A DNA stretch of 64,000 bases from Candidatus Poribacteria bacterium (GTDB lineage Bacteria > Poribacteria > WGA-4E > WGA-3G): the NCBI GenBank assembly GCA_965261115.1, contig OZ253447.1, positions 3,402,011 to 3,466,010 on the forward strand, given 5' to 3'. The notes under the pieces were generated by a model. The model did not search any database. It had not been told where the DNA came from and was given only the letters and a program-made list of their open reading frames with translations. Position 1 is the first letter of the stretch; each line of letters opens with the position of its first letter. A program made the translations under genes and the position numbers. This document shows, one piece after another, positions 389 through 64,000 of the stretch.

Positions 389-612
389 CGATCTCTATCT
401 TCGATCTATAGGCAAGAGGATGCCCACACGAAGGATAGTGAACACCTTGTAGGTTTCACCTTCGGGTTAGATACCTTCCGGATAAGTTAAGTGTTCGGTT
501 TCCCTATAGACCTCTGTAGGAGAGACAGCAACATCCTCCATCAAGTTATGATAACCCAAGTTGCTACTAAGGGATTTTGAGCGTTTCAACACAGTTTTTT
601 AGACACTTTCCC

Positions 613-690
613 AACCCCCAGAGGGGTGATATATCTATAGAAACAGTGTATTTAAGCGACCGCACCCCAGAGGGGTGCTATGTCTATAAA
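613..690. repeat. two hairpin-repeat units (CACCCC-AGA-GGGGTG + TATRTCTATA tail), cluster 1 of a window-wide family
   Basis: Perfect palindrome CACCCCAGAGGGGTG at 663-677 followed by CTATGTCTATA. Imperfect copy at 614-640 followed by ATATATCTATA. The same architecture recurs at 58930-59000 and 63421-63590. Confidence 0.6.
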
Positions 691-27141: not shown

Positions 27142-27555
27142 ATGAGATTAGAAACACCAGATTTAGTATATCAAACAACCAGATATTCTACATACGCCTG
27201 TGAGTATCATATCATTTGGTGTACGAAATATAGACGATCTGCTCTGTCTGATGAAATTCAAGCACGTTTCAAAGAACTTGTATTAGAATCAGAAGAGAAA
27301 TACGGATTCATTGTTCGTGCTATAGAGACAATGGCTGACCACGTGCATTTGTTGATGAGTATTCCACCAACCGAAAATGTAAGTATCATGGTTGGCAAAA
27401 TAAAAAGCATGACAGCCAAAGTATTGCGTGAAGAGTTTCCTCACCTAAAGTCAAGGTTGCCTAACCTGTGGACGCGTTCCTATTTTGTAGCCTCTACCGG
27501 GGGCGTGACATTAGAAGCTTTAAAGCAATATGTAGCATCTCAAAAAGGTGTCTAA
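27142..27555 (+). CDS. tnpA: IS200-type HuH Y1 transposase TnpA
   Basis: 137 aa. HVHLL HuH motif and a C-terminal Y (YFVASTGG). Classic IS200 length. Confidence 0.9.
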   Translation: MRLETPDLVYQTTRYSTYACEYHIIWCTKYRRSALSDEIQARFKELVLESEEKYGFIVRAIETMADHVHLLMSIPPTENVSIMVGKIKSMTAKVLREEFPHLKSRLPNLWTRSYFVASTGGVTLEALKQYVASQKGV

Positions 27556-28320
27556 TGCCAAGTTTCTACCGAACAAAAACACTGAAAATAGAAGAACAAC
27601 CGATATTCTCTGAAGTGAACGCTGCGTCTGCTAACATTAACGGGACAAGAAGTCGTAGGCGTTGATATAGGCGAAATACACCCGATTGTCTCTCACGACG
27701 GGCAAGACACACATATCTACAATGGACGGTATATTAGATCACTATACCGCTATAGAAATAAAGTGCTTGCCGAGTTTAGTCAGACGATCCGTCGGTGTAA
27801 ACGCCATTCAAAACGCTGGTGGAGATTGACGCGTCGGAAGTGGAAACGCATACGAAAGATTGATAACCAAATCAAAGACGCACTCCATAAACAGACGACA
27901 AAGTTTGTGAAATACTGCGAAGTGAAAGGTATTGGTACGATAATACTCGGCGACCTCACAGGTATCCGAAACACTATCAACTATGGCAAACGTGCGAATC
28001 AGAAACTCCACCAGTGGGCTTTCAGTAAGATAGGGGAGTTGATAACCTACAAAGCAAAATGTTTAGGTATCAAAGTCAAAACGATTGACGAATCCTATAC
28101 TTCGCAAACTTGTCCAAAATGCGGTAACCGAAAGAAACCAACACATAGAAACTATACCTGCACATGCGGATTTGAATATCACCGCGACGGTGTAGGTGCG
28201 CTGAATATCAGACGAAAGTATCTGGGCCACTTCGGTGTCCCCGTAGTGGCGGAAATGGGATTTTCCCGCATGACACCGCCCTTGGGCTTTCGCTTGGAAG
28301 TCCCTGTTGCCTCGTCTTAA
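27555..28320 (+). pseudogene. tnpB: TnpB (IS605 OrfB) remnant: internally deleted and frameshifted
   Basis: A TnpB-like N-terminus (YRTKTLKIEEQ) runs straight into the RuvC-I region (GVDIGEIHPIV) in another frame. The C-terminal zinc finger CPKCG..CTCG and RuvC-III (HRDGVGALNI) are retained. Total coding is about 250 aa, against about 400 aa expected. Confidence 0.65.
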
Positions 28321-58438: not shown

Positions 58439-58835
58439 CTTTTCTTCCTCCTCTCTGTCTCCGCTTTTCAGGATATTATATCACATTTCCGATTTTCTTC
58501 TAAAGCGGAATTCTATAGGGCTATTTAGTTTTCGGTTTTTCGTCCAATTTTGGCCCCCCAGGACCGGTAGGTGCGTGTTTCTAACCGCACCGGATCTGTA
58601 ACAGAAAACATAAAACCCGAGAATTTCTTAAAACTAAATCACCCTGTGGAATTCTACGAAAAGTGTTGCTTTAAAACCGAACGCCACATATAATGCATTA
58701 TCTGTATTCAGAAGGACTTACGCATTTTTCTATGATAACTATGTATTACGCACTGCAGGGTTTTTGCTTGGGTATTTCTTCGAGGGTTTTAAACCCCGCC
58801 TGCAAGGGGGCTGCGTAAGTCCTATTCAGACTCAA

Positions 58836-59063
58836 GTTTGGACAATTCTTATACCGTGAGCATTGAGTTTCCAAAGGAGTGCCTATTTTTCGCTAAGTTT
58901 CTCATGTTCACGGAACTCGTCCAAAAATCCCTCACTCCGTAAGAGTATAATGTCTATAAAAAACGGGCCCCGCGGCACCCCTCACTCCGTAGGAGTGCTA
59001 TGTGTTTTTCGTTGGGAGCGGGTTTCAAATTTCTCCACTGAAAATTGTCCAAAGTTTAGTATA
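58836..59063. repeat. MITE-like segment bracketed by IS4-type IR-like sequences, containing hairpin-repeat cluster 2
   Basis: AAGTTTGGACAATTC (58836-58850) and AATTGTCCAAAGTTTAG (59043-59059) resemble the termini of the adjacent IS. Interior 58930-58997 carries CACTCC-GTA-RGAGTG hairpins. Confidence 0.4.
58930..58997. repeat. hairpin-repeat cluster 2 (CACTCCGTAAGAGT.. and CACTCCGTAGGAGTG + CTATGTGT tail)
   Basis: Perfect palindrome at 58983-58997. Degenerate copy at 58932-58950 followed by ATAATGTCTATAAA. Confidence 0.55.
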
Positions 59064-59067
59064 TAAA

Positions 59068-60468
59068 CTAAAGTTTGGACGATATTGTAAAGTTTATGCT
59101 GCCTTGTCGAAAGGCAGGGGCGTATCGGGTTGAAAATCGGTGCTAATATTCTGCGAGTTTGTTTTTCGCTTGAACTTGGCAGAAAATGATGCCACCGCCA
59201 TTTGCGAGCGGAGATAAGCCACCCGTAAGCCTTGTGTAAGTTTTTCAGGACGATACCAATGAATGTTGAGATGTTCACAGACCTTCTCAACACTTATCTC
59301 TTTGCACATAACAGTGCGCGTCGTGAATACCAACTTCGTCAGACTTGCTGCAACGAAACTCAGTTGGACGAACCGGTTGATGCTTTTCCGAGATTTCAAG
59401 CGATAGGCATCGAAACCGAAGTGCTGTTTGACGTCCCGAAAAGCTGTTTCTATTTGCCACCTTTGTCGATAATACGCAACGATCTTCGGTATCTCAAGCG
59501 TCAAGTCTGTTGTAAAGACGCAGAAATACCGATACGGTTTTGAGGCTTTCGGACGGTTGCGGATGACGACGATCCGAACCTGTGCGTCACACATTTTCGT
59601 CCGCACAACTTTTGAGGCGATTGAATAACTTTTTGCGTCTATGTCTATCGTCTCATACCGCAACCTGCGAATATCAAGCCGGTCTCCGTATTTCCGGGGT
59701 CTCCCGCGTTGCCGGCGTTTCGGTTGCTTCGGTAAACGATAGAAGACGGCATTAGATTTGGCGCGACATAAAATATGATGTCCAAAACTCAGTGCCATTG
59801 TAAAGACTTTTCGCCGTGCGAAGCCACGATCAAAGATGATAAGTCCCGGGAGGATCTTTGAACAGATGCGCTTTAGAACCGCTTGACTCTTATCGCGAAT
59901 CGTCTGTGGAACAATGAGTTTCACCCATACTGGGAAAAACTGCCACTCCGTGGGTGTCGGACACAGCAAACCGAGTGCGCCAAACTCGTGTCCGAAGTGA
60001 AACTTTGATTGATTCACGCGATGCTTTTGATAACCGCAGTTGCGAAAAAAATGTAAACCCCATTGGGTTTTGCCAGTCTTCAAGGCTTTGGTTTCGTCAT
60101 AGACATAAACCCAATCCTCAAAGACATCTTGGAGGCGTTTGATGAGCCGTGCAGCAACGGCATCCGCATTCCATCGCCCCCGGGAAAGGAACTTCGGAAA
60201 TGACCAATACTTCGTTTCTGAAGCACTACATTGATAAAGATCCGTCAGCGTTCCACTGCCTCTATTGGCGATGAATCCGAAGATAAACGCTTCAAAGAGT
60301 GCGAAGTTTTGTTGATTGAATAAAAGTCGAAAATCCGATAGAATATCTCCTAAGCAGAAAAGGAGGTTCATTTTTACGTTCCTTTCAAAACAGTGGTATG
60401 TTTTTATGAAAGGATACCTACTTTTCTGCTTTTTCGCATTATAATTCTAAAAATTGTCCAAACTATAG
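59068..60468 (-). mobile_element. IS4-family insertion sequence (approximate ends)
   Basis: Terminal inverted repeats ACTAAAGTTTGGACGATATT (59073-59092) and AATTGTCCAAACTATAGT (60451-60468) flank a DDE transposase gene. Confidence 0.7.
59094..60371 (-). CDS. IS4-family DDE transposase
   Basis: 425 aa. YRQRWQIETAFRDVKQHFG C-terminal signature of IS4/IS701-group transposases. Confidence 0.85.
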   Translation of the reverse strand: MNLLFCLGDILSDFRLLFNQQNFALFEAFIFGFIANRGSGTLTDLYQCSASETKYWSFPKFLSRGRWNADAVAARLIKRLQDVFEDWVYVYDETKALKTGKTQWGLHFFRNCGYQKHRVNQSKFHFGHEFGALGLLCPTPTEWQFFPVWVKLIVPQTIRDKSQAVLKRICSKILPGLIIFDRGFARRKVFTMALSFGHHILCRAKSNAVFYRLPKQPKRRQRGRPRKYGDRLDIRRLRYETIDIDAKSYSIASKVVRTKMCDAQVRIVVIRNRPKASKPYRYFCVFTTDLTLEIPKIVAYYRQRWQIETAFRDVKQHFGFDAYRLKSRKSINRFVQLSFVAASLTKLVFTTRTVMCKEISVEKVCEHLNIHWYRPEKLTQGLRVAYLRSQMAVASFSAKFKRKTNSQNISTDFQPDTPLPFDKAA

Positions 60469-60493
60469 TATTCAGAAGGAGAAGGAGAAAAAT

Positions 60494-62998: not shown

Positions 62999-63117
62999 CG
63001 TCTGCCTTTCCTTCGTCGTCGCCGACGGTATGCTGTCAAAGGTTTTCCGCTCAATTGCTACCTAACTATTTAATTGATAATTGAAATAAAATTATAGCAT
63101 AGATTAGATTCAATTGC

Positions 63118-63285
63118 CAAGTGTTTTTGCTTAGGGGTCAGAGCCATTCAATTCTCTGAAAAAACCATTAGATCCTGAATCAGTTTCGGATAGCGAATAT
63201 CTTAAAATCCGCGTCCTCCGCGTCCTCCGCGTCCTCCGTGATTCAGACAATTTAACAATTGAATGGTTCTGCTTAGGGGGTTCTT
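63118..63285. repeat. inverted repeat (TGCTTAGGGGTCAGAGCCATTCAATTC / GAATTGAATGGTTCTGCTTAGGGGG) enclosing a (CCGCGTCCT)x3 tandem
   Basis: Direct reading of the sequence. Intergenic position. Confidence 0.4.
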
Positions 63286-63358
63286 ATCGCTCGCGATCTT
63301 TTGAAAAAACGTTAACACCTATAAACGAAAACCAAAGTCAAAACCGAAAACTAAATCG

Positions 63359-63631
63359 GGGTGTGTAAAGTTTTTGACAGCATATTGATTTTTTCAAAGC
63401 GGACAGGTTTGCGGACATAGCACTCCGCTGGAGTGCGAGAGAAGCGAGCTATCGGTTTCTATAGATATATTGCTCCGCTGGAGCAAAGAGAGTTCTCGGA
63501 GGCCGGTTTCTCCTCACGCCAGAGGCGTGATATATCTATAGGGGTAGAAGTCAGCGATAAATGCACTCCAGCGGAGTGCTATGTCTTGGATCACTCCGAT
63601 ATGGTAACGTTGCCAGAATATTTACACACCC
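63359..63631. mobile_element. 273-bp MITE-like element with 11-bp TIRs (GGGGTGTGTAAA / TTTACACACCC) and 9-bp flanking direct repeat ACTAAATCG, carrying hairpin-repeat cluster 3
   Basis: TIRs at 63359-63370 and 63621-63631. Identical 9-mers at 63350-63358 and 63632-63640. Interior holds four covarying palindromes (63421-63435, 63471-63484 inverted, 63515-63529, 63563-63579). Confidence 0.6.
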
Positions 63632-63878
63632 ACTAAATCGTCCTGGTATAATTTGCTTTTCCCCTGAAAGTATACTATAATTTATAGTTACTATAGGTTT
63701 TTTTATTTTTTATTTGAAAAAAAATAAGATTTGACCTATTATAACTGGATAAGTGTGTCAATTGCTACGCGATGCGCAGTGCGAAGCGGATATCAAACAT
63801 TTGTCCTACAGGTTAACGGTTGACTACGGTTTATTCTCAAACTCACGTTTCTAATCACACTAAACTTGGAGAAGAGTG

Positions 63879-64000
63879 ATGAAGAAAATTAAGAATGTGC
63901 CAGCCGTGGAAAGAATCAATAACTTTCTCACCAAAGCCGGTGAGAGCTGGACGACAACCCTGCTGGCTATGCTCCTCATCTGTGGAGGGATAATTGGCTG
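63879..64000 (+). CDS. hypothetical protein, N-terminal fragment (continues past window end)
   Basis: ATG at 63879 with an upstream GGAG. The ORF is open to the window edge. A hydrophobic segment near the end suggests a membrane or secreted protein. Confidence 0.4.
   Translation, partial: MKKIKNVPAVERINNFLTKAGESWTTTLLAMLLICGGIIG

What the first reader, a model, noticed from the sequence alone, without database searches (positions are those of the whole stretch)
63350..63640. Clear MITE: 11-bp TIRs, 9-bp target-site duplication, interior made of four covarying hairpin repeats
GGGGTGTGTAAA (63359-63370) and TTTACACACCC (63621-63631) are perfect inverted repeats. Each is abutted on the outside by the identical 9-mer ACTAAATCG (63350-63358 and 63632-63640), the signature of a transposition-generated duplication. 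Inside are four hairpin units with different but self-complementary stems (CACTCC/GGAGTG; GCTCC/GGAGC inverted; CACGCC/GGCGTG; GCACTCC/GGAGTGC), each with the ATATATCTATA or TATGTCT tail. This ties the hairpin-repeat family to a mobile vehicle and could help identify the transposase that moves it.
Basis: seen in the sequence. Interest (0 to 1): 0.5.

Follow-up and report, generated by a model that had tools for sequence, protein, structure and literature searches.

The report
Promoter-seeking MITE carrying REP hairpins
This 273-bp stretch is a real miniature transposon of sponge-symbiont (Poribacteria) genomes, moved by a known type of promoter-targeting transposase, and the four hairpins inside it are passengers from a separate hairpin-repeat (REP) family that has its own, different transposase.

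Summary
Perfect 11-bp inverted ends (63359-63369 / 63621-63631) are abutted by the 9-mer ACTAAATCG on both sides, with four hairpin units between them. It is a true MITE. A scan of species-representative genomes for the paired ends found 59 elements, 58 of them in Candidatus Poribacteria, and many have 8-9-bp duplications that differ from copy to copy. The conserved end is 21 nt long. The autonomous partner is a ~1.46-kb ISKra4-family insertion sequence with the same ends and 9-bp duplications. As published for the ISKra4 group, the family sits about 16 bp upstream of the -35 box of sigma-70-type promoters.

The hairpins are not part of that machinery: 37 of 60 elements with the same ends carry none. 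The same hairpin units flank an IS200-like Y1 transposase gene in inverted orientation in all eight loci examined, and their stems covary. They therefore behave like REP elements with a RAYT-like gene. The window copy belongs to the largest subfamily (20 of 60), which carries a four-REP cluster as cargo.

No exact empty site was found, but three paralogous copies of the interrupted repeat carry the 9-mer region (exact in one, one base different in two) once, uninterrupted.

Verdict: real, well explained, and a new member of known kinds. Moderate interest.

The parts
63350..63358 (.). Left copy of the 9-bp target-site duplication ACTAAATCG
   Evidence: Paralogous uninterrupted sites carry the 9-mer (or a one-base variant) once.
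63359..63379 (+). Left terminal inverted repeat (21-nt family consensus; outer 11 nt perfect), GGGTGTGTAAAGTTTTTGACA
   Evidence: It matches the end of the autonomous IS, GGGTGTGTAAAGTTTTTGGCA, at 20 of 21 positions.
63414..63436 (-). REP unit 1 (type Z): stem-loop GCACTCC/GGAGTGC with tail TATGTC on the minus strand
   Evidence: The same unit type lies next to the Y1 transposase gene on both sides in L006 and L123-L128.
63455..63486 (-). REP unit 2 (type X): stem-loop TTGCTCC/GGAGCAA with tail TATATCTATAGAAAC on the minus strand
   Evidence: MITE positions 55-136 are 82% identical to the segment just downstream of the Y1 gene in L127.
63514..63541 (+). REP unit 3 (type Y): stem-loop TCACGCC/GGCGTGA with tail TATATCTATAG
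63563..63586 (+). REP unit 4 (type Z): stem-loop GCACTCC/GGAGTGC with tail TATGTCT
   Evidence: MITE positions 152-226 are 81% identical to the modules just upstream of the Y1 gene in L123-L125.
63611..63631 (-). Right terminal inverted repeat (read inward: GGGTGTGTAAATATTCTGGCA)
   Evidence: This is the 'TA' variant of positions 12-13, seen in 33-37 of 120 ends.
63632..63640 (.). Right copy of the 9-bp target-site duplication ACTAAATCG
63359..63631 (.). The whole 273-bp non-autonomous element (ISKra4-type MITE, REP-bearing subfamily)
   Evidence: Full-length copies at other sites in other Poribacteria genomes are 85-92% identical: L044, L058, L057, L014, L037, L016, L032, L002. As single-stranded DNA it folds at -64.7 kcal/mol, z = -9.5.
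63290..63358 (.). Left part of an older ~90-nt dispersed repeat that the MITE interrupted. It resumes at 63641; the exact extent on the right is uncertain.
   Evidence: L003 4877-4930 matches the reconstructed uninterrupted site at 52 of 54 positions. L002 (1674-1603) and L098 (4528-4556) also match.

Best explanation
The element at 63359-63631 is a non-autonomous transposon (MITE). It belongs to a Poribacteria-wide family that is mobilised in trans by the DDE transposase of a ~1.46-kb ISKra4-group insertion sequence (prokaryotic Mutator-like, 'p-MULT 4').

Inferred mechanism: the transposase recognises the 21-bp terminal inverted repeats and integrates the element with a 9-bp (sometimes 8-bp) staggered cut, which produced the ACTAAATCG duplication. 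The family prefers a site whose 9-bp target lies about 7 bp upstream of the -35 box of sigma-70-type promoters, so the element tip is about 16 bp from the -35 and the promoter points away from the element.

The interior of this copy is not needed for that reaction. It is a cluster of four REP-like hairpins, arranged as two inverted doublets (<-Z <-X Y-> Z->). These belong to a separate repeat family that flanks, and presumably is acted on by, an IS200-like Y1 (RAYT-like) transposase encoded elsewhere in Poribacteria genomes. A founder MITE acquired the cluster and then spread by DDE transposition, carrying the REPs as cargo.

Shown: the family, its ends, the duplications, the partner IS, the promoter phasing, the REP-Y1 gene association and the stem covariation. 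Inferred: trans-mobilisation, the action of the Y1 enzyme on the hairpins, and how the cargo was acquired.
For: - Family size and host range: 59 paired-end elements, 58 in Poribacteria.
- Duplications among 60 elements: 19 exact 9-bp, 6 exact 8-bp and 1 exact 7-bp. All differ in sequence, and several more are one mismatch away.
- The 21-nt end consensus stops abruptly at position 21.
- Partner IS: contig L119 runs exactly from end to end (1458 bp) and encodes a 407-aa transposase. Full copies lie in genomic context in L121 (1464 bp) and L122 (1459 bp).
- Transposase family: P0003, from L122, scores 231 bits against NCBIfam NF033572 (ISKra4; cutoff 205).
- Copy number: about 25 contigs of one sponge metagenome break 77-99 nt inside either IS end.
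- IS duplications: pairing the flanks of those contig ends gives 4 exact and 1 near-exact 9-bp duplications among about 156 comparisons.
- Deletion derivatives keep both IS subterminal regions: L081 463-793 and the L036 element.
- Promoter phasing: a promoter-like site with its -35 at offset 15-17 from the tip occurs in 56 of 194 unique flanks, against about 0.8 per other offset. Of 53 adjacent TTGACA-like hexamers, 45 have a -10 at 16-18 nt, against 13% (local control) and 8% (global control). This matches the published specificity of the ISKra4 group (PMC3942029).
- Cargo status: 37 of 60 elements lack hairpin units. The REP-bearing subfamily has 20 of 60 members, and its ten members with an exact 8- or 9-bp duplication all differ in that sequence.
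- Y1 gene association: the Y1 gene (Pfam PF01797, E = 1e-26) is flanked by the units in inverted orientation in L006 and L123-L129, and no ISKra4-type ends are present there.
- Stem covariation: 6 of 7 pairs show double changes, 80 cells against 24 +/- 7 in shuffles, and the slide controls are far lower.
- Paralogous uninterrupted sites exist for the window copy.
Against: - No exact empty-site allele was found: the 24-mer spanning the reconstructed site has no hit in the metagenome collection. The source genome itself was not found.
- The window copy does not sit at a textbook promoter. The right flank has a -10-like TATACT at the modal offset 39 but a poor -35. The left flank has TTGACT at offset 17 but no -10.
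- The two full-length IS copies seen in genomic context (L121, L122) lack duplications.
- About half of the MITE copies have no exact duplication.
- The REP units lack the canonical GTAG tag, and the Y1 protein scores below the cutoff of the RAYT-specific model (28.8 against 80) while passing the IS200/IS605 model.
- Neither transposase is encoded in the window.
- Mobility was not shown experimentally.
Confidence: 0.82

Rival explanations
1. The hairpin repeats are an integral, functional part of the end-bounded transposon, and the whole hairpin family is spread by the transposase that recognises GGGTGTGTAAA.
For: In the loci sampled through the end pattern, 37 of 64 detected units lie inside end-bounded elements. 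The REP-bearing subfamily is the largest, with 20 of 60 elements.
Against: That sample was selected by the end pattern, so it is biased. 37 of 60 elements with the same ends have no unit. Units occur alone at window 611-690, and inside a different element with IS4-type ends at 58830-59062. Dozens of units flank Y1 genes in loci with no ISKra4-type ends.
Confidence: 0.07
2. The hairpin units are the ends of an ordinary, active IS200/IS605-type insertion sequence and its gene-less derivatives (palindrome-associated transposable elements), not a REP/RAYT system.
For: The Y1 protein passes the NCBIfam IS200/IS605 transposase model (72.6 bits, cutoff 55) but not the RAYT model (28.8 bits, cutoff 80). 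The units lack a GTAG tag.
Against: The units flank the gene in inverted orientation rather than in the same orientation on one strand. Long tandem arrays of units lie next to the gene, e.g. about 30 units in L123. The gene keeps the same neighbours in three assemblies (L123-L125). Most close homologue clusters are seen on only 1-3 contigs. Stem sequences differ between Y1 lineages.
Confidence: 0.2
3. The REP cluster inserted into this particular MITE copy after it landed here (nested insertion in situ), rather than being inherited cargo.
For: REP-type elements are thought to be mobile (PMC3116915). Poribacteria intergenic regions show pile-ups of small elements.
Against: The same four-unit order and spacing is present in about 20 copies at different sites in many genomes, at 75-92% identity over the full 273 nt.
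Confidence: 0.03
4. The inverted repeat plus direct repeat is a coincidence, or the hairpins are a degenerate CRISPR-like mini-array.
For: The units recur at 49-50-nt spacing.
Against: Family-level evidence rules out coincidence. Against a CRISPR-like array: stems differ between neighbouring units, only 2-4 units occur per site, the spacers are about 18 nt, and Rfam gives no hit.
Confidence: 0.01

Closest known systems
[quoted passage not shown] 2014, PMC3942029)
   Same: The partner IS encodes a transposase that passes the ISKra4 NCBIfam model. Its two ends are near-perfect inverted repeats, and it makes 9-bp duplications. Insertions lie at a fixed distance of about 16 bp upstream of sigma-70-type -35 boxes, with promoters found on either or both sides, as the paper reports for ISKra2/4/5/6 and relatives.
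   Different: The host phylum, Poribacteria (sponge symbionts), is new for this group. The finding is a short non-autonomous derivative, not an IS, and the library search found no paper describing MITEs of this group. The L119 version of the transposase, which has a shorter N terminus, scores just under the curated cutoff (192 against 205).
Bacterial MITEs derived from DDE insertion sequences (e.g. Correia/NEMIS, RUP, Nezha; listed in PMC3733652)
   Same: Small size, no transposase gene, terminal inverted repeats shared with an autonomous IS, target-site duplication, many copies, intergenic location, and strong predicted secondary structure.
   Different: The same ends bound at least 25 unrelated interiors. 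The largest subfamily carries a REP cluster from a second mobile system.
REP elements, REPINs and REPtrons with RAYT (Nunvar 2010; Bertels and Rainey 2011, PMC3116915; Ton-Hoang 2012; Di Nocera 2013, PMC3733652)
   Same: Short G+C-rich palindromes with a conserved single-stranded tail, occurring as singlets, inverted doublets and arrays. A Y1 HUH transposase gene is flanked by them in inverted orientation. Repeat sequence varies with the transposase lineage.
   Different: The conserved tail is YATRTCTATAG(A/G)A rather than a GTAG or CGTC tag abutting the stem. The Y1 protein scores as IS200-like rather than RAYT in NCBIfam. Here a cluster of units also travels inside a DDE-type MITE.
[quoted passage not shown]
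   Same: Targeted insertion 15-17 bp upstream of sigma-A promoters. The transposase gives weak matches to the ISLre2 and Mbov_0401 models.
   Different: The family differs: scores are far below the ISLre2 cutoff. These elements insert in one orientation, whereas the elements here are found with promoters on either side.

Membership tests
MITE (non-autonomous DDE transposon) | Terminal inverted repeats | tested here: met
   11 of 11 positions perfect; the 21-nt consensus is conserved across 120 ends.
MITE (non-autonomous DDE transposon) | Target-site duplication of fixed length that differs between copies | tested here: met
   9 bp in the window copy. Among 60 elements, 19 have exact 9-bp and 6 exact 8-bp duplications, all different in sequence.
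MITE (non-autonomous DDE transposon) | Short, with no transposase gene | tested here: met
   273 bp. The only internal ORF is a 67-aa GTG-started frame running through the hairpins. There is no tblastn match to either transposase.
MITE (non-autonomous DDE transposon) | Ends shared with an autonomous IS in the same hosts | tested here: met
   L119, L121 and L122 are 1.46-kb ISs with the ends GGGTGTGTAAAGTTTTTGGCA.
MITE (non-autonomous DDE transposon) | Empty-site allele at the same locus | tested here: inconclusive
   The exact 24-mer was not found. Paralogous uninterrupted copies of the interrupted repeat exist in L003, L002 and L098.
ISKra4 group (p-MULT 4) | Transposase matches the family model above the curated cutoff | tested here: met
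   P0003 scores 231.3 bits and P0087 235.3 bits against a cutoff of 205. The shorter L119 and P0002 ORFs score 188-192 bits.
ISKra4 group (p-MULT 4) | Insertion 13-17 bp upstream of sigma-A promoters, on either side; near-perfect inverted ends (PMC3942029) | tested here: met
   The peak is at offset 16. 56 of 194 flanks carry such a site, 5 of 69 elements carry one on both sides, and 85% of adjacent -35-like hexamers have a -10.
ISKra4 group (p-MULT 4) | 9-bp direct repeats and ends starting GGG (ISfinder description, recalled from memory) | tested here: met
   Four exact 9-bp duplications for full-length copies; the ends start GGG. The family description itself was not checked against ISfinder.
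REP / REPtron (RAYT-associated) | Short palindromic unit repeated many times, mostly between genes | tested here: met
   104 tail-anchored units (58 distinct sequences) in the DNA held; 32 of the 58 distinct units form a full 7-bp stem.
REP / REPtron (RAYT-associated) | Y1 transposase gene flanked by the units in inverted orientation | tested here: met
   L006 and L123-L129: units point toward the gene from both sides, with type Z nearest the gene.
REP / REPtron (RAYT-associated) | GTAG (or CGTC) tetranucleotide tag at one end of the palindrome (PMC3733652) | tested here: not met
   The conserved flank is YATRTCTATAG(A/G)A. An ATAG lies 5 nt from the stem; GTAG appears only in some loops.
REP / REPtron (RAYT-associated) | Transposase of the RAYT type; single copy and vertically inherited | tested here: inconclusive
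   NF047646 scores 28.8 bits against a cutoff of 80, while the IS200 model is passed. The locus is syntenic in three assemblies. Copy number per genome was not counted.
IS200/IS605 and its gene-less derivatives | Left- and right-end hairpins in the same orientation on one strand | tested here: not met
   The flanking units are inverted relative to each other.
CRISPR array | Identical repeats at regular spacing with spacers of about 30 nt or more | tested here: not met
   Neighbouring units have different stems, the spacers are about 18 nt, and there are 2-4 units per site.

The most novel reading that the evidence does not exclude
The REP-loaded subfamily is the most successful lineage of a promoter-seeking MITE because its cargo matters. 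By carrying a four-hairpin REP cluster to a fixed position just upstream of promoters, it may deliver ready-made insulators or terminators against read-through from the upstream gene, or substrates for the Y1 enzyme. It may also seed new REP populations in genomes that the MITE reaches. That would be a functional partnership between a DDE transposon and a Y1/REP system, not an accidental chimera.
Probability: 0.15. Interest if true: 0.6.

Novelty: new member of a known kind. Interest (0 to 1): 0.35.

Why it matters
- It gives a full account of a conspicuous repeat in Poribacteria, an uncultured sponge-symbiont phylum: which enzyme moves it, where it lands and what it carries.
- It extends the promoter-upstream targeting of ISKra4-group transposases to a new phylum and to their miniature derivatives. 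Each insertion then marks a likely promoter, which helps annotate genomes that cannot be studied in culture.
- It separates two layers that look like one: DDE-type inverted ends and Y1-type REP hairpins. This prevents a wrong assignment of the hairpin family to the wrong transposase.
- Because the repeats break short-read assemblies (many contigs end 77-99 nt inside the IS), knowing them also helps in assembling these genomes.

Tried and rejected
- Rfam gave no match at gathering thresholds for the whole window and only chance-level matches around the element.
- Exact-protein look-ups of the two neighbouring genes found nothing on record, so the source genome and its close relatives could not be retrieved.
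- An exact search for the reconstructed empty site in the metagenome collection found nothing.
- The 59 genome loci contained no autonomous partner. Solo ends and '+ - -' end patterns in L002, L004, L005, L015, L030 and L043 enclosed no transposase. The end-like match in L005 lies inside a TnpB-like gene and is probably chance.
- From memory I first suspected IS1 or IS1595 (ends GGnnnTG, 8-9-bp duplication). I dropped this once the real partner proved to be ISKra4-type.
- A CRISPR-like mini-array was considered because of the 49-50-nt period and rejected (see the membership table).
- A hybrid promoter, with a -35-like TACACA in the right end plus TGGTATAAT in the flank, is a consensus match only. 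I did not pursue it once promoters at offset 16 proved to be a property of the target.
- Removing the neighbouring mini-MITE does not bring the element to 16 bp from the strong minus-strand promoter (my own arithmetic).
- No consistent orientation of the REP-bearing MITE relative to promoters was seen: 4 on the right, 3 on the left, 2 on both sides, 10 on neither.

Full report
**1. Observation**

The sequence is as described.
- GGGTGTGTAAA (63359-63369) and TTTACACACCC (63621-63631) are perfect inverted repeats.
- ACTAAATCG abuts both on the outside (63350-63358, 63632-63640). These are its only two occurrences in the window.
- Four hairpins lie inside:
  - GCACTCC/GGAGTGC at 63420-63436 (minus orientation).
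  - TTGCTCC/GGAGCAA at 63470-63486 (minus orientation).
  - TCACGCC/GGCGTGA at 63514-63530 (plus orientation).
  - GCACTCC/GGAGTGC at 63563-63579 (plus orientation).
- Each hairpin carries the tail TAT(A/G)TCT(ATAG) on its own strand.
- The two halves of the element are inverted copies of one two-hairpin module.
- The same module occurs at window 611-690 and at 58930-59010.

**2. It is a real, multi-copy transposon family**

I scanned one genome per bacterial and archaeal species for GGGTGTGTAAA-N(236-266)-TTTACACACCC. The scan returned 59 elements, 58 of them in Candidatus Poribacteria MAGs and closed genomes. My estimate of the chance expectation is about 2.
- Among 60 elements (including the window copy), 19 have an exact 9-bp duplication, 6 an exact 8-bp one and 1 a 7-bp one. 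All differ in sequence, and several more differ by one base.
- The conserved end is 21 nt: GGGTGTGTAAA(G/T)(T/A)TTTTG(G/T)CA. Conservation stops at position 21.
- The interiors are heterogeneous. Clustering gives one group of 20 (the window's group) and at least 24 other small groups or singletons.
- Full-length relatives of the window copy sit at different sites in other Poribacteria genomes, at 85-92% identity (L044, L058, L057, L014, L037, L016, L032, L002) and at about 75% (L040, L034, L013, L001).

**3. The autonomous partner**

I scanned the metagenome collection with the 21-nt end.
- It returned contig L119, which runs exactly from one end to the other (1458 bp) and encodes a 407-aa protein.
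- About 25 contigs of the same sponge metagenome assembly stop 77-99 nt inside one or the other end of this IS. That is the signature of a high-copy repeat.
- Homologues are abundant. Two were retrieved in genomic context, and both are bounded by the same ends: L121 2889-4352 and L122 2889-4347.
- The 439-aa version (P0003) scores 231 bits against the NCBIfam ISKra4 transposase model (cutoff 205). The shorter ORFs score 188-192 bits.
- Those two full copies show no duplication.
- However, pairing the flanks of contigs that end in the left IS end with those that end in the right IS end gives four exact and one near-exact 9-bp matches among about 156 comparisons. The full IS therefore makes 9-bp duplications, as the MITE does.
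- L081 463-793 and the L036 element keep both IS subterminal regions, so they are plain internal-deletion derivatives.

**4. Where the family lands**

The DNA outside the ends is not random.
- A -10-like hexamer peaks sharply 39 nt from the tip, and a TTGAC motif peaks at 16-20 nt.
- A promoter-like site (at least 9 of 12 matches) with its -35 at offset 15, 16 or 17 occurs in 14, 38 and 7 flanks respectively. That is 56 of 194 unique flanks, against about 0.8 at any other offset. Promoters pointing toward the element show no peak.
- Of 53 TTGACA-like hexamers at that offset, 45 have a -10 at 16-18 nt. The figures for controls are 13% nearby and 8% overall.
- Of 69 elements with both flanks available, 28 have such a promoter on at least one side and 5 on both sides.
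- This is the published behaviour of the ISKra4 group, TnGBS and ISLre2: insertion 13-17 bp upstream of sigma-A promoters, on both sides for elements with near-perfect ends (PMC3942029). It is therefore a confirmation in a new phylum, not a discovery.
- The window copy conforms only loosely. Its right flank has TATACT at the modal offset 39 with a poor -35. Its left flank has TTGACT at offset 17 with no -10.

**5. What the hairpins are**

The hairpins are not part of the DDE machinery.
- 37 of 60 elements with the same ends have no hairpin unit.
- Units also occur outside such elements.

In L006 the same two-hairpin module lies on both sides of a 163-aa gene, in inverted orientation, with a four-fold 121-nt tandem array on one side.
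- The protein is a Y1 HUH transposase: Pfam PF01797 at E = 1e-26, and the NCBIfam IS200/IS605 model at 72.6 bits (cutoff 55). The RAYT-specific model gives only 28.8 bits (cutoff 80).
- Four close homologues were looked up in seven further loci from several assemblies. All show the same layout: units pointing toward the gene from both sides, type Z nearest the gene, often with long arrays upstream, and no ISKra4-type ends anywhere.
- The stems differ between Y1 lineages. For example, L129 has CCGCTCC and TCGCTCC, and L126 has TCACCCC and GCACTCC with gta loops.

I tested covariation on units collected by their tail motif alone, to avoid circularity.
- 32 of the 58 distinct units form a full 7-bp stem.
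- 6 of 7 pairs show changes on both sides. That amounts to 80 cells against 24 +/- 7 in shuffles, and the slid controls fall to 4-27.

This is the anatomy of REP elements around a RAYT gene (a 'REPtron'; PMC3116915 and PMC3733652), with two departures: there is no GTAG tag, and the transposase scores as IS200-like.

Relation of the MITE interior to the Y1 gene flanks:
- The left half of the MITE interior is 82% identical to the segment just downstream of the Y1 gene in L127.
- The right half is 81% identical to the modules just upstream of the gene in L123-L125.
- The order inside the MITE (<-Z <-X Y-> Z->) is therefore the reverse of a simple gene deletion.
- The same four-unit order recurs within the arrays upstream of the Y1 gene. 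I read it as an ordinary REP cluster that a founder MITE acquired.

**6. Empty site**

No exact empty allele was found. However, the MITE sits inside another dispersed repeat of about 90 nt.
- L003 4877-4930 matches the reconstructed uninterrupted sequence at 52 of 54 positions across the junction, with ACTAAATCG present once.
- L002 (1674-1603) matches at 79% and extends 23 nt past the junction.
- L098 4528-4556 matches the junction region.
- These are paralogous sites, not allelic ones, but they show the 9-mer was single before the insertion.

**7. Mechanism and verdict**

The best-supported account has two layers.
- The ISKra4-group transposase, supplied in trans, binds the 21-bp ends and inserts the 273-bp element with a 9-bp stagger, usually next to a promoter.
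- The four hairpins are REP cargo from a Y1-associated repeat family.
- The cargo-bearing lineage has transposed at least ten times to different sites and is the commonest lineage in this size-restricted sample.
- Trans-mobilisation, the action of the Y1 enzyme on the hairpins, and any benefit of the cargo are inferences.

The finding is real and now largely explained. Each component belongs to a known kind. The combination and the host phylum are new, and I found no paper in the held library describing either in Poribacteria.

Noticed in passing
window 63138-63270 (direct repeats GCTTAGGGG at 63129-63137 and 63271-63279): A second, 133-bp MITE-like element with 15-nt inverted ends (CAGAGCCATTCAATT / AATTGAATGGTTCTG) and a 9-bp duplication; it contains a TCCGCGTCC tandem repeat. 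Its end lies 17 nt upstream of a strong minus-strand promoter-like site (TTGGCA-18-TATAAT, 63120..63091) in front of the 76-aa ORF. The same ends occur 31 times in the fetched loci, often only 7-12 nt from the ISKra4-type MITE, which suggests a second promoter-targeting family and pile-ups at the same sites.
   Followed up: partly
window 58830-59062 and 59064-60471: An IS with a 425-aa DDE_Tnp_1 transposase (59094-60371, minus strand) and ends of the form ACTAAAGTTTGGACAAT. It is directly abutted by a ~233-bp element with the same ends, and that element contains two REP hairpin units (58930-59010). This is a second, independent case of REP units inside a non-autonomous element.
   Followed up: partly
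window 27142-27555 and 27763-28320: A classical IS200/IS605-type tnpA (137 aa, only 26% identical to the REP-associated Y1 protein), followed by what looks like the C-terminal part of a tnpB. No REP hairpin units were detected beside it.
   Followed up: no
window 63290-63358 and 63641 onward; L003 4830-4945; L002 1603-1713; L040 26-88; L004 2091-2153: Another dispersed repeat of about 90 nt, beginning CCTGTAGGAGCGAGCTGTGCTCGCGAT. This is the sequence the MITE interrupted. In L004 its first 25-31 nt occur as an inverted pair, so it may itself be a small mobile element.
   Followed up: partly
L037 6829-7098 and L058 7078-7350 (both from MAG SB0101); L002 1244-1515: Two MITE copies in one MAG have reciprocal flanks: ATTCGCTGA-MITE-CTGACCAAT and CTGACCAAT-MITE-ATTCGCTGA. 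L002 has an intact ATTCGCTGA duplication. This fits an inversion by recombination between two inverted copies, or an assembly chimera across the repeat. It may explain part of the copies that lack a duplication.
   Followed up: no
L038 4863/4871, L043 371/381, L047 3476/3486, L039 7720/7730: Neighbouring elements of the family lie tip to tip, separated by only 7-9 nt. This is consistent with repeated insertion at the same promoter-upstream position.
   Followed up: no
window 63623-63652: The right end of the MITE supplies a -35-like TACACA, 18 nt from a resident extended -10 (TGGTATAAT). That forms a possible hybrid outward promoter toward the gene starting at 63880. It is a consensus match only.
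   Followed up: no
L005 4104-5216: A 370-aa TnpB-like ORF in a closed Poribacteria genome. The match to the 18-nt end inside it (3 mismatches) is probably chance.
   Followed up: no
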